Source: a virus. Taken from it: DNA of 64,000 nucleotides. Position 1 is the first letter of the stretch, and each line of letters opens with the position of its first letter. The translations under genes and the position numbers were made by a program. The notes beneath the pieces are model-generated. The model was not told where the DNA came from and ran no database searches. It saw only the letters and a list, made by a program, of their open reading frames with translations. The stretch lies in IMG/VR virus record IMGVR_UViG_3300025154_000049, positions 94,518-158,517 of that record; one strand, given 5' to 3'. Shown here one piece after another: positions 29,274 to 31,083 of this stretch.

Positions 29274-29347
29274 TGGAGCGGGTAGGGAGAATCGAACTCC
29301 CTTCATCAGCTTGGAAGGCTGAGGCACAACCTATATACCATACCCGC
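29274..29347 (-). tRNA. tRNA-Gly(TCC)
   Basis: Cloverleaf, loop CTTCCAA, CCA. Confidence 0.93.
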
Positions 29348-29354
29348 TTAATAA

Positions 29355-29437
29355 TACAGGTGAGAGGATTTGAACCTCCACGCTTTTTAAGGCACGAGTG
29401 TCTAAAACTCGCATGTCTACCATTCCAACACACCTGC
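29355..29437 (-). tRNA. tRNA-Leu(TAG)
   Basis: Loop TTTAGAC, long variable arm, no encoded CCA. Confidence 0.92.
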
Positions 29438-29449
29438 ATAATATATAAA

Positions 29450-29523
29450 TGGCTGAGGAGATAGGAATCGAACCCATATTCACTGAGTCAAAGTCAGGTG
29501 TCCTGCCGTTAGACGACTCCTCA
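29450..29523 (-). tRNA. tRNA-Gln(TTG)
   Basis: Loop CTTTGAC, CCA. Confidence 0.92.
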
Positions 29524-29534
29524 ATAATTAAAAA

Positions 29535-29609
29535 TGGCTCCCTCGGCAGGACTCGAACCTACAGCCATTCGATTAACAGTCGAACGCTCTACCATTGAGC
29601 TACGAGGGA
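29535..29609 (-). tRNA. tRNA-Asn(GTT)
   Basis: Loop CTGTTAA, CCA. Confidence 0.95.
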
Positions 29610-29615
29610 ATAAAA

Positions 29616-29687
29616 AGCCCTTTGTCAGATTTGAACTGACAACCTTCATCTTACAAGGATGTTGCTCTACCATTGAGCTAAAAGGGC
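29616..29687 (-). tRNA. tRNA-Thr(TGT)
   Basis: Loop CTTGTAA, no CCA. Confidence 0.92.
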
Positions 29688-29690
29688 AAG

Positions 29691-29765
29691 TGGGTGGAAG
29701 GACGGGACTCGAACCCGCTTTGCTTCGTTCACAGCGAAGGATATTACCCATATATGACCGACCAC
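29691..29765 (-). tRNA. tRNA-His(GTG)
   Basis: Loop CTGTGAA, G-1:C73, acceptor stem mismatches. Confidence 0.85.
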
Positions 29766-29766
29766 A

Positions 29767-29840
29767 TGGCGGAACTATGGGGATTTGAACCCCAGACTTC
29801 TCGCAGACAACGAGTAGTTTTACCCCTAAACTATAGTTCC
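29767..29840 (-). tRNA. tRNA-Asp(GTC)
   Basis: Loop TTGTCTG, CCA. Confidence 0.88.
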
Positions 29841-29847
29841 AAATATA

Positions 29848-29920
29848 TAGATACTGAGAGACTCGAACTCCCGACTTCCTCCGTGTAAGAGAGGCACTCT
29901 ACCGACTGAGTTAAGTATCC
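29848..29920 (-). tRNA. tRNA-Val(TAC)
   Basis: Loop CTTACAC, no CCA. Confidence 0.93.
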
Positions 29921-29921
29921 A

Positions 29922-29997
29922 TGGTCTAGGTGGAGGGACTTGAACCCCCGACTCCCTACGTCCAAGGTAGGATTTCTACCAACTGAATTACACCTAG
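29922..29997 (-). tRNA. tRNA-Pro(TGG)
   Basis: Loop CTTGGAC, CCA. Confidence 0.93.
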
Positions 29998-30008
29998 ATT
30001 ATAATTAA

Positions 30009-30082
30009 TGGTGTTTCCTAGAAGAGTCGAACTTCTGTCTAACGCTTATGAGGCGACCGCTCTGCCGTTGAGCTAAGGAAAC
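30009..30082 (-). tRNA. tRNA-Met or Ile2 (CAT)
   Basis: Loop CTCATAA, paired 1:72, CCA. Confidence 0.88.
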
Positions 30083-30083
30083 A

Positions 30084-30161
30084 TGGTAGCAGGAGTTGGA
30101 TTTGAACCAACGACCCCCAGCTTATGAGACTGGTGAGCTAACCAGACTGCTCTATCCTGCG
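30084..30161 (-). tRNA. tRNA-fMet-like (CAT)
   Basis: CGCAGGATAGAGCAG start, C1xT72 mismatch, loop CTCATAA. Confidence 0.88.
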
Positions 30162-30167
30162 ATAATA

Positions 30168-30241
30168 AGTACCTGATTGGATTTGAACCAACGACTACAG
30201 AGGTTGCAACTCTGCCCCTTAGACCACTTGGGTACAGGTAC
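30168..30241 (-). tRNA. tRNA-Cys(GCA)
   Basis: Loop TTGCAAC, U73. Confidence 0.9.
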
Positions 30242-30242
30242 A

Positions 30243-30317
30243 TGGTGGGAGTAGTAGGTACCGAGCCTACCTCTGGTGCTTTTCAGGCACCCGCTAATCC
30301 ATCTCAGCTATTCTCCC
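30243..30317 (-). tRNA. tRNA-Phe(GAA)
   Basis: Loop CTGAAAA, atypical T-loop CTCGGTA, CCA. Confidence 0.85.
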
Positions 30318-30321
30318 ATAA

Positions 30322-30395
30322 TGGTGGAGCTTGGGAGAGTCGAACTCCCGACAAATGGTTGCAAACCAATCGTTTTACCACTAAACTAAAGCCCC
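30322..30395 (-). tRNA. tRNA-Ala(TGC)
   Basis: Loop TTTGCAA, G3-U70, CCA. Confidence 0.92.
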
Positions 30396-30400
30396 ATAAT

Positions 30401-30658
30401 GGGAGGAGTTACCCTCCCCGACTTCTAGGCTACGAGAGCCATTTTACGTCCGAAGTCTAAAGACACTGTGTTGTTTCCGTTTGTTGTTTTTTGCTATTTT
30501 TAAAGAGAATGCCCTCTTACTTGCGAGTTTATCCCTACCTACCACGTCTAAACCTGGCGACCCCATGGTGGAATCGGTGGGAATCGAACCCACGTCCGCA
30601 ACAGACATCAATAAACCTTCTACAAGTTTAGTCCTATTTGTAAGAGTTAGACTTCTCA
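30401..30658 (-). ncRNA. ssrA: circularly permuted (two-piece) tmRNA
   Basis: 3' piece (...GGACGTGGGTTCGATTCCCACCGATTCCACCA, ends 30566) precedes 5' piece GGGGTCGCCAGGTTTAGACG (from 30564); G3-U70; tag ORF 30478-30425. Confidence 0.9.
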
Positions 30659-30678
30659 TTTAAGTTTTCAAGGTGCAA

Positions 30679-30709
30679 TAAAAAGAGGTTCTTTTTGTGA
30701 GAACCTCTT
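30679..30709 (-). terminator. intrinsic terminator
   Basis: AAGAGGTTCT-loop-AGAACCTCTT followed by TTT. Confidence 0.7.
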
Positions 30710-30727
30710 GAAGAATTTTTTCTTTTA

Positions 30728-30980
30728 TCGTTGGAGCCTATTAAACTCCTCCGTCAGAGGTTCTTGTTCTCATGCCTGTGCAATCCACGCTATGTCCTTC
30801 AAAATTAATTGACGGATTCGCTATGGTATAGTTTTGTTGTAGCATGAGTTCCATTTTATTTTCTTTCTGACCCGTTAAGGATATCATCTTTTCTAATTTG
30901 AGTCCTAAGTATTTGTTACTCGGTATGAACTTAGGGATAACCGAAGATAGTTTTTAGTTGCATAGCTATCATAACAACAA
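30728..30980 (-). ncRNA. candidate structured RNA upstream of tmRNA
   Basis: Nested stems GTCAGA/TCTGAC, CTCATGCT/GGCATGAG, AATCCG/TGGATT. Confidence 0.4.
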
Positions 30981-31054
30981 ATATTTGATTTTCTAATTAT
31001 AATATAAAGTAGTGTAGAAAAAACTATTATATTTTTTCTTTACCCTATGTAAAC

Positions 31055-31083
31055 ATTATACCATGAGATGAATTCTTTGTCAA
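31055..31083 (-). promoter_or_regulatory. sigma70 promoter
   Basis: TTGACA-17-TATAAT. Confidence 0.85.

What the first reader, a model, noticed from the sequence alone, without database searches (positions are those of the whole stretch)
30401..30658. Phage-encoded circularly permuted tmRNA with a single-nucleotide intervening segment
Seen: the tmRNA 3' domain (ACTAAACTTGTAG...T-arm...CGATTCC-ACCA) lies upstream of the 5' domain (GGGGTCG..GACG), separated by one T (30565). The acceptor stem has G3-U70. Inter-piece helices are present: GCAAGT/ACTTGT, GATAAACT/GGTTTATT and GAAGTCTAA/TTAGACTTC. A PK1-like hairpin precedes the tag ORF GNNTVSLDFGRKMALVA-stop. Established: two-piece tmRNAs occur in alphaproteobacteria, some betaproteobacteria and some cyanobacteria. 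Inference: a compact permuted phage version with a 1-nt spacer is unusual and easily missed by standard annotation.
Basis: partly seen in the sequence, partly recalled or inferred. Interest (0 to 1): 0.8.

Follow-up and report, generated by a model that had tools for sequence, protein, structure and literature searches.

The report
Compact two-piece tmRNA in phage
An uncultured T4-like phage carries a genuine "two-piece" ribosome-rescue RNA (tmRNA) gene with only one base between its two halves, but this is the short extreme of an already known kind of phage gene rather than something new in kind.

Summary
ARAGORN and Rfam's tmRNA_permuted model (93.8 bits against a cut-off of 47) both call a circularly permuted tmRNA on the minus strand at about 30396-30677. 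A single U (30565) lies between the encoded CCA and G1, G3-U70 is present, and the tag is GNNTVSLDFGRKMALVA. The gene heads a tightly packed 14-tRNA array in a 158-kb T4-like IMG/VR phage. A complete 190-kb sister phage and a third metagenome fragment keep the 1-nt U. The sister has four double-compensatory stem changes and no broken pair, so the gene is under selection. The novelty claim is much weaker. Phage two-piece tmRNAs are published (PMC9004378), and this scan has noted them often on other DNA. Among 124 permuted tmRNAs on viral contigs the spacer runs from 1 to 32 nt, with a main mode at 4-5 nt. A Rickettsiales MAG's alpha-type ssrA also has a 1-nt U spacer. Cyanophage S-CAM1 has a compact junction directly ahead of tRNA genes. 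The closest relatives are beta-type viral tmRNAs with 4-5-nt spacers, and this one is a reduced derivative that lacks their post-tag pseudoknot. The host is unknown and the phage encodes no SmpB.

The parts
30628..30677 (-). 5' leader of the acceptor piece. Conservation among the three phage variants starts at about 30677 (UGCACCUUGAAAA). The mature 5' end is unknown.
   Evidence: Alignments. The beta_tmRNA model's end-to-end alignment reaches 30677. There are 9 differences from the sister phage.
30566..30627 (-). Acceptor-piece core: P2 5' strands (30627-30623, 30617-30610), T-arm (30593-30577), acceptor 3' strand (30576-30570), discriminator A (30569), encoded CCA (30568-30566).
   Evidence: RF04321 alignment. 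RF00023 3'-half alignment, 55.1 bits. Compensatory changes in the sister phage.
30565..30565 (-). Intervening sequence: a single U. It is the -1 nucleotide for RNase P and can pair with A73.
   Evidence: Sequence. The same U is kept in G001/L091, L102 and L103.
30396..30564 (-). Coding piece: acceptor 5' strand GGGGUCG (30564-30558), P2 3' strands (30533-30526, 30523-30519), PK1-like hairpin (30518-30503), tag frame, stop-codon hairpin and 3' hairpin. It ends where tRNA-Ala begins.
   Evidence: RF04321 and RF00023 5'-half alignments. Constrained folds.
30425..30478 (-). Tag reading frame: GGA resume codon to UAG, encoding GNNTVSLDFGRKMALVA.
   Evidence: ARAGORN. The Rfam alignment puts GGA on the consensus resume codon. 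The only substitution in the sister phage is synonymous, GAC to GAU.
30401..30418 (-). 3'-terminal 7-bp hairpin of the coding piece (GGGAGGG UAAC UCCUCCC). It stands where beta-type genes have their terminal hairpin and has no U tract.
   Evidence: Folds. Alignment with beta-type genes.
29274..30395 (-). Array of 14 tRNA genes directly downstream, with A/U-rich spacers of 0-11 nt. Ten of the 14 encode CCA. Two junctions (Phe/Cys and Met/Met) are also a single U.
   Evidence: ARAGORN and Rfam. Spacer table.
30683..30709 (-). Terminator-like hairpin (10 bp followed by a U run) just upstream of the leader. It is present in the window only; in the two relatives a protein gene ends here instead.
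   Evidence: Alignments.
31026..31083 (-). Two near-consensus sigma-70-type promoters (12 of 12 and 11 of 12 matches) about 350 nt upstream. They are the nearest candidate source of transcription into the tmRNA/tRNA operon.
   Evidence: consensus scan only.

Best explanation
This is a functional two-piece (circularly permuted) tmRNA gene that acts as the first unit of the phage's polycistronic tRNA operon.

Shown: the gene order is 3' tRNA-like half plus CCA, then one U, then the 5' half, P2, a PK1-like hairpin, the tag frame and a terminal hairpin. The alanine identity pair G3-U70 is present. Selection maintains the stems.

Inferred mechanism:
1. The precursor folds so that the acceptor stem is closed by the pentaloop A-C-C-A-U.
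2. Host RNase P cuts between U(-1) and G1. This one cut makes the 5' end of the coding piece and leaves the acceptor piece ending in CCA-U.
3. A host 3' exonuclease removes the single U.
4. RNase P cleavage at the 5' end of tRNA-Ala sets the 3' end of the coding piece.
5. The two pieces stay joined by the acceptor stem and P2.
6. Host AlaRS charges the RNA, and host SmpB and EF-Tu deliver it to stalled ribosomes. These then append (A)GNNTVSLDFGRKMALVA, a hydrophobic ALVA-ended degradation tag.

The 1-nt spacer matches the extreme packing of the whole array, where spacers are 0-11 nt and most end in U. By descent the gene is most likely a reduced derivative of the beta-type permuted tmRNAs with 4-5-nt spacers that are found on other viral contigs.
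For: Detection: (93.8 bits against a cut-off of 47). The two halves match the 3' and 5' parts of the standard tmRNA model in swapped order.

Selection: the complete 190-kb sister phage (capsid 99% identical) has the same gene at 98.2 bits. It has 13 differences in the 52-nt tRNA-like core: two T-stem and two acceptor pairs changed on both sides, one G-U changed to G-C, no pair broken, and G3-U70 and the U spacer kept. Only 4 differences fall in the other ~185 nt, and the one in the tag frame is synonymous. A third variant (L103) also has CCA-U-GGGG.

Fold: with the canonical helices enforced, the fold is within 5.7 kcal/mol (window) and 1.7 kcal/mol (sister) of the free minimum.

Operon context: spacers of 0-11 nt and mostly encoded CCA.

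Host dependence: no SmpB and no standard tmRNA in either phage genome.

Relatives: the nearest by nhmmer are beta-type at curated threshold. They share the tag end (ATGGCUCUCG..GC.UA.) and the resume context.
Against: There are no RNA data, so processing, charging and tagging are all inferred. No promoter was found between the upstream terminator-like hairpin and the gene, so expression depends on read-through or on an unrecognised phage promoter. The second stem of PK1 is weak. The gene fails all three lineage-specific Rfam cut-offs: alpha 19/50, beta 56.3/84, cyano 43/70. Standard Burkholderiales tmRNAs also score 40-50 bits on the beta model, so the beta affinity rests on the alignment rather than on that score. 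A five-nucleotide loop may hinder simultaneous CCA and leader contacts with RNase P (own reasoning). A 73%-capsid relative that is 90% complete has no tmRNA, so the gene is dispensable in this phage group.
Confidence: 0.8

Rival explanations
1. The RNA is made and processed but mainly acts as a competitor. It would take over or titrate the host SmpB/trans-translation system, or redirect tagging to a phage-chosen tag, rather than simply supplement ribosome rescue.
For: The phage has no SmpB, so it must use the host's. The tag is long (17 aa), starts with Gly and differs from every other tag held. A phage tRNA-like-domain-only tmRNA (DS6A type) is reported to inhibit endogenous tmRNA (PMC11915505 and PMC4131195). 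The tRNA-like core differs strongly between sister phages, as might be expected if it is tuned to host factors.
Against: A complete, conserved tag frame with a canonical ALVA end is kept, and its one substitution is synonymous. A pure decoy would not need the frame.
Confidence: 0.1
2. It is a decaying or non-functional copy captured from a host or another phage.
For: It scores below all three lineage-specific cut-offs. The post-tag pseudoknot of beta types is missing. A related phage lacks the gene.
Against: There are four double-compensatory stem changes with none broken, and G3-U70, CCA, the U spacer and the tag frame are kept in three variants. The general model scores 94-98 bits.
Confidence: 0.04
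3. The call is an artefact of a tRNA-like 3' end abutting an unrelated GGGG start, as happens at tRNA-Tyr junctions or at head-to-tail repeats of standard tmRNA.
For: The same search pattern does hit such false cases: tRNA-Tyr junctions (L094, L095, L098) and tandem standard tmRNAs on short contigs (L097, L099, L101), which give RF04321 hits of up to 84.8 bits.
Against: Here P2 strands, a tag frame and a terminal hairpin follow in the permuted order. No PK2-PK4 region or second copy flanks the gene. The contig is a 158-kb phage genome, and the gene recurs in a 190-kb genome closed by terminal repeats.
Confidence: 0.01

Closest known systems
Beta-type permuted tmRNA genes with 4-5-nt spacers on IMG/VR viral contigs (for example L012, L117, L144, L189, L197; RF01850 at 122-142 bits)
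   Same: Permuted order, encoded CCA, a very short spacer ending in U or C, near-identical tag end (MALAA against MALVA at the nucleotide level), a similar resume context, and the best nhmmer similarity.
   Different: This gene has a 1-nt rather than 4-5-nt spacer. It lacks their ~55-nt post-tag pseudoknot region. Its tag has 17 residues starting with Gly rather than about 12 starting with Ala. It scores only 56 bits on RF01850 (cut-off 84).
Synechococcus phage S-CAM1 permuted tmRNA (HQ634177.1, unannotated in the record; RF01851 at 128 bits)
   Same: An isolated T4-like phage with a permuted tmRNA placed directly upstream of tRNA genes (Arg, Val). The junction is compact, with 5 nt from discriminator to G1. 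The tag contains NNIV..F.R..VAA, reminiscent of NNTV...F.RK..LVA.
   Different: It is clearly cyano-type, CCA is not encoded (CUC), and its sequence is otherwise unrelated to this gene.
Two-piece tmRNAs of Methylophilales phage Melnitz, pelagimyophages and other aquatic phages (PMC9004378)
   Same: Published precedent for complete permuted ssrA genes in T4-like phages of aquatic bacteria, with the same proposed reliance on host factors.
   Different: Those are alpha-type, some carry a glutamine riboswitch, and no 1-nt spacer is described in the text I read.
Alpha-type ssrA of a Rickettsiales MAG (JAIRTB010000079.1; RF01849 at 127.9 bits)
   Same: An identical junction...UCCACCA-U-GGGG..., which is a 1-nt U spacer in a cellular genome.
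   Different: It is a bacterial alpha-type gene, not in a tRNA operon, with no sequence relationship beyond the tRNA-like domain.
Canonical bacterial two-piece tmRNAs (Caulobacter alpha type; Burkholderiales beta type such as L204)
   Same: The same permuted architecture and the same inferred maturation by tRNA-processing enzymes (PMC11915505).
   Different: Their spacers are tens of nucleotides and often form a hairpin, about 25 nt in L204. The Rfam consensus spacer is about 22 nt.

Membership tests
Permuted (two-piece) tmRNA, Rfam RF04321 | Score at or above the curated gathering threshold (47 bits) over the full model | tested here: met
   93.8 bits, model positions 1-213. The sister phage scores 98.2 bits.
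Permuted (two-piece) tmRNA, Rfam RF04321 | The 3' tRNA-like half with its CCA position lies upstream of the 5' half, with the tag frame downstream | tested here: met
   Sequence and alignments.
Permuted (two-piece) tmRNA, Rfam RF04321 | Alanine identity element G3-U70 in a 7-bp acceptor stem, plus a tRNA-like T-arm | tested here: met
   GGGGUCG pairs with CGAUUCC and includes G3-U70. It is kept in the sister phage although pairs 4-6 changed.
Permuted (two-piece) tmRNA, Rfam RF04321 | Tag reading frame ending in a hydrophobic degradation signal and a stop codon | tested here: met
   GNNTVSLDFGRKMALVA followed by stop. The one change in the sister phage is synonymous.
Permuted (two-piece) tmRNA, Rfam RF04321 | The transcript is cleaved into two base-paired RNAs, charged with alanine, and acts with SmpB | not testable with these tools
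   No RNA or biochemical data are available. No SmpB gene is present in the phage and the host is unknown.
Beta-type two-piece tmRNA, Rfam RF01850 | Score at or above the gathering threshold (84 bits) | tested here: not met
   56.3 bits, end to end. Standard Burkholderiales tmRNAs score 40-50 bits on the same model.
Beta-type two-piece tmRNA, Rfam RF01850 | Pseudoknot region between the stop codon and the terminal hairpin of the coding piece | tested here: not met
   In the alignment the window goes from the stop codon almost directly to the terminal hairpin, and about 55 nt present in six beta-type genes are missing.
Beta-type two-piece tmRNA, Rfam RF01850 | Sequence similarity in the tag end and resume-codon context | tested here: met
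   Alignment A2. The top nhmmer hits are beta-type.
Cyano-type two-piece tmRNA, Rfam RF01851 | Score at or above the gathering threshold (70 bits) | tested here: not met
   43 bits, tRNA-like domain only. S-CAM1 as a positive control scores 128 bits.
Alpha-type two-piece tmRNA, Rfam RF01849 | Score at or above the gathering threshold (50 bits) | tested here: not met
   19 bits, partial.
Standard one-piece tmRNA, Rfam RF00023 | Collinear 5' half, PK1, tag, PK2-PK4 and 3' half | tested here: not met
   Only truncated halves match, in swapped order: 55.1 and 21.5 bits. The best match in the whole phage genome is 36 bits.

The most novel reading that the evidence does not exclude
This phage lineage represents a separate, minimal form of permuted tmRNA that no lineage-specific model captures. 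The spacer is reduced to one U that can pair with the discriminator A73, and all pseudoknots after the tag are lost. The gene then behaves as just another 'tRNA' in a polycistronic array, matured by a single RNase P cut plus removal of one nucleotide. This would approach the lower limit of what RNase P and 3' trimming can handle at a CCA/leader junction, and might derive from an independent permutation event.
Probability: 0.15. Interest if true: 0.4.

Novelty: new member of a known kind. Interest (0 to 1): 0.25.

Why it matters
It adds a clean, comparatively supported example at the short end of permuted tmRNA spacers, and shows that a two-piece tmRNA can be packed into a tRNA operon with the same spacing as the tRNAs. 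That makes it a convenient natural substrate for asking how RNase P handles a precursor whose 3' CCA is joined to the 5' leader by a single nucleotide. It does not change what is known about tmRNA or phage biology. Phage two-piece tmRNAs, short spacers and placement beside tRNA genes are all already on record.

Tried and rejected
1. Exact and degenerate DNA patterns for close relatives in IMG/VR found none. Relatives came instead through the Gp23 capsid protein and the 0-2-nt junction pattern.
2. BLAST against deposited phages found only similarity at the level of the tRNA-like domain.
3. Clan filtering hid the beta-model alignment even when I restricted the search region. I replaced it with a MAFFT alignment against six beta-type genes, in which my coordinates for the sister-phage row were shifted, so that row was not used.
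4. Host identification failed. Melainabacteria and cyanobacterial ssrA genes therefore could not be compared.
5. Literature searches for cyanobacterial tag strings and for statements on spacer length found nothing useful, and PMC516066 is not held. The resemblance of the tag to cyanobacterial ANNIV-type tags rests on S-CAM1 and on my memory.
6. I rejected it as a conserved feature.
7. I rejected a link between the tag end (KMALVA) and the phage's shared MxELVx protein tails as evidence of anything. The register differs by one residue and the last residue of the tails varies.

Full report
**What is there.** On the minus strand at about 30396-30677, ARAGORN reports a permuted tmRNA with tag GNNTVSLDFGRKMALVA. 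Rfam's tmRNA_permuted model (RF04321) scores 93.8 bits against a curated cut-off of 47, matching all 213 model positions. The model's ~22-nt intervening region collapses to one U.

Read directly, the order of features is:
- leader;
- P2 5' strands;
- T-arm, GUGGG-UUCGAUU-CCCAC;
- acceptor 3' strand CGAUUCC, then A73 and CCA (30568-30566);
- U at 30565;
- acceptor 5' strand GGGGUCG (30564-30558), with G3-U70 and G4-U69;
- P2 3' strands;
- hairpin AAGAG/CUCUU;
- tag frame 30478-30425;
- a small hairpin spanning the stop codon;
- a 7-bp terminal hairpin (30418-30401);
- five nucleotides, then tRNA-Ala.

The standard tmRNA model matches only as two truncated halves in swapped order. It is therefore a true permutation and not a tandem junction. 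That artefact does occur: head-to-tail standard tmRNAs on short metagenome contigs give RF04321 hits.

**Context.** The window is the right-hand 64 kb of a 158.5-kb IMG/VR virus record that CheckV rates 83% complete. The DNA is 32% G+C, and nearly all ORFs are on one strand. The record encodes a Gp23-type major capsid protein, a prohead protease and a tail sheath, so this is a distant T4-like myovirus.

The tmRNA heads an array of 14 tRNA genes (29274-30395). The array has A/U-rich spacers of 0-11 nt, mostly ending in U. Ten tRNAs encode CCA, and two junctions are also a single U.

No sigma-70-like promoter lies between an upstream terminator-like hairpin (30709-30683) and the gene. Two near-consensus promoters lie at 31083-31026. 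In the two relatives a protein gene runs right up to the leader, with no terminator. Co-transcription with upstream genes, followed by processing, is therefore the likely route. Neither phage genome encodes SmpB or a standard tmRNA.

**Is it under selection?** The capsid protein led to a complete 190-kb sister phage with direct terminal repeats and 99% capsid identity. It carries the same gene at 98.2 bits. The same phage recurs in the metagenome collection (L102), and a third variant (L103) is a truncated fragment. All three have CCA-U-GGGG.

Window and sister differ at 26 positions:
- **tRNA-like core (52 nt): 13 differences.** Both sides changed in two T-stem pairs (G-C to A-U, U-A to A-U) and two acceptor pairs (U-A to G-C, C-G to U-A). 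G4-U69 became G-C. No pair is broken, and G3-U70 is unchanged.
- **Leader: 9 differences.**
- **P2, PK1, tag and tail (~185 nt): 4 differences.** The one in the tag frame is synonymous (GAC to GAU).

With the canonical helices enforced, the fold lies within 5.7 kcal/mol (window) and 1.7 kcal/mol (sister) of the unconstrained minimum. A working gene is by far the best reading. A 73%-capsid relative that is 90% complete lacks the gene, so it is an accessory gene.

Helices 1 and 2 are the P2 helices of the Rfam model. They are invariant among the three variants, so they give no covariation. Helix 3 (leader 30655-30647 with tag-frame 30460-30452) is a perfect 9 bp in the window, which 1.7% of shuffled leaders match. 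It has two mismatches in each relative. In the sister's constrained fold it is replaced by the local stop-codon hairpin GAUUUC/GAAGUC, which the C-to-U change keeps as a G-U pair. I treat helix 3 as unsupported. The second stem of PK1 is weak, so "PK1-like hairpin" is a fair description.

**How unusual is the 1-nt spacer?**
- *Literature.* Two-piece tmRNAs in phages are published. Buchholz et al. found 53 among isolate phage genomes, mostly aquatic, and describe Melnitz and the pelagimyophages (PMC9004378). The 2025 tmRNA database lists 79 phage sequences and 11,946 permuted ones (PMC11915505). Earlier notes of this scan also report many phage two-piece tmRNAs on other DNA.
- *Viral contigs.* I surveyed junctions by pattern and placed G1 by complementarity to the acceptor 3' strand. 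Among 124 ARAGORN-confirmed permuted tmRNAs, spacers run from 1 to 32 nt with modes at 4-5 and 26-30 nt. Only this lineage has 1 nt, and the next shortest is 3.
- *Spacers of 0-2 nt.* A specific pattern found only the sister phage in IMG/VR. It found three hits in about 185,000 species genomes, and eight in the metagenome collection.
- *Real cases among those hits.* Apart from this lineage, only one is real. It is a Rickettsiales MAG whose alpha-type ssrA (RF01849, 127.9 bits) has the same CCA-U-GGGG junction, and ARAGORN misses it.
- *Limits of the pattern.* It requires an encoded CCA and consensus T-loop and D-region motifs, so all these counts are lower bounds.
- *S-CAM1.* This isolated cyanophage has an unannotated cyano-type permuted tmRNA (128 bits) with 5 nt between discriminator and G1. 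CCA is not encoded, and the gene lies directly ahead of tRNA-Arg and tRNA-Val.
- *Placement beside tRNAs.* 12 of 134 other viral permuted tmRNAs also abut tRNA genes.

The 1-nt spacer is therefore rare but continuous with a common short-spacer class. The same junction also occurs once in a bacterial genome.

**Lineage.** All three lineage-specific models fall below their cut-offs: alpha 19/50, beta 56.3/84 end to end, and cyano 43/70 over the tRNA-like domain only. Standard Burkholderiales tmRNAs also reach 40-50 bits on the beta model, so that score alone says little.

The best nhmmer hits among about 200 held loci are viral-contig tmRNAs that are beta-type at curated threshold and have 4-5-nt spacers. 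Alignment with them shows shared sequence at the tag end (AUGGCUCUCGUAGCCUAG against AUGGCUCUCGCUGCUUAA) and at the resume context (AAACGGAAACAAC against AAACGCAAACGAC). It also shows that the window lacks their ~55-nt post-tag pseudoknot region. A canonical bacterial beta-type gene has a ~25-nt hairpin spacer.

I conclude that this is most likely a reduced derivative of the short-spacer beta-type group. It does not meet that family's curated test. Several other viral permuted tmRNAs likewise pass only the general model.

The tag also recalls cyanobacterial-type tags (S-CAM1: ...ANNIVAFSR..VAA). The host remains unknown.

**Mechanism (inferred).**
1. The precursor's acceptor stem is closed by the loop A-C-C-A-U. 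U(-1) can even pair with A73, leaving a CCA triloop.
2. Host RNase P cuts 5' of G1. U is its preferred -1 base (my own knowledge) and is the usual last spacer base in this array.
3. That single cut frees both pieces. One nucleotide is then trimmed from CCA-U by a 3' exonuclease.
4. RNase P cleavage at tRNA-Ala sets the 3' end of the coding piece.
5. Charging by AlaRS through G3-U70, delivery by host SmpB and EF-Tu, and tagging with an ALVA-ended peptide follow the established tmRNA pathway.

None of these steps has been shown for this RNA.

**Verdict.** It is a new member, at the compact extreme, of the known class of phage-borne permuted tmRNAs, and interest is modest.

Noticed in passing
L097, L099, L101, L096, L100 (short metagenome contigs Ga0005255J37291_103001, Ga0134022_1165352 and others): Standard one-piece tmRNAs are repeated head to tail, with CCA abutting GGGG directly (0-1 nt; the period is 353 nt in L097). 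These are probably assembly artefacts of an abundant RNA. They produce false RF04321 'permuted' hits of up to 84.8 bits and duplicate ARAGORN calls.
   Followed up: partly
L104:1446-1760 (Synechococcus phage S-CAM1, HQ634177.1, about 108,640-108,960): A clear cyano-type permuted tmRNA (RF01851, 128 bits; tag ANTSDSAANNIVAFSRSTVAA) is not annotated in the GenBank record. It sits directly upstream of tRNA-Arg and tRNA-Val.
   Followed up: partly
L093:1352-1676 (Rickettsiales MAG JAIRTB010000079.1): An alpha-type ssrA with a 1-nt U spacer. Rfam finds it (127.9 bits) but ARAGORN reports no tmRNA there, so very short spacers can defeat one of the standard finders.
   Followed up: partly
window 1-64000, minus strand: 67 of 144 minus-strand ORFs of at least 60 aa end in [MILV]-x-E-L-[VIT]-x(0-2)-stop, for example ...MQELVA. 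The tmRNA tag ends ...KMALVA, which is superficially similar (M..LVA) but one residue shorter and without the Glu. The last residue of the protein tails varies. I found no evidence of a link.
   Followed up: partly
window 30546-30597 against L091 (sister phage): Divergence between the two phages is concentrated in the tRNA-like core (25% against about 2% in the rest of the tmRNA body). This looks like a swapped or fast-co-evolving patch, possibly tuned to different host factors.
   Followed up: partly
L091:1311-1472 against window 30322-30395: The sister phage's array has an extra tRNA-Tyr between tRNA-Phe and tRNA-Ala, and a different tRNA-Ala sequence. The rest of the array is collinear.
   Followed up: no
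window 30710-31025: About 300 nt between two near-consensus promoters (31083-31026) and the terminator-like hairpin (30709-30683) hold no ORF of 100 aa or more. Another reader flagged this stretch as a possible structured RNA. The two relatives have a protein-coding gene here instead.
   Followed up: no
L037, L053, L013, L114, L040, L005 (IMG/VR contigs): Other permuted tmRNAs on viral contigs also pass only the general RF04321 model and none of the three lineage models. The three-lineage scheme therefore does not cover the diversity of viral permuted tmRNAs.
   Followed up: no
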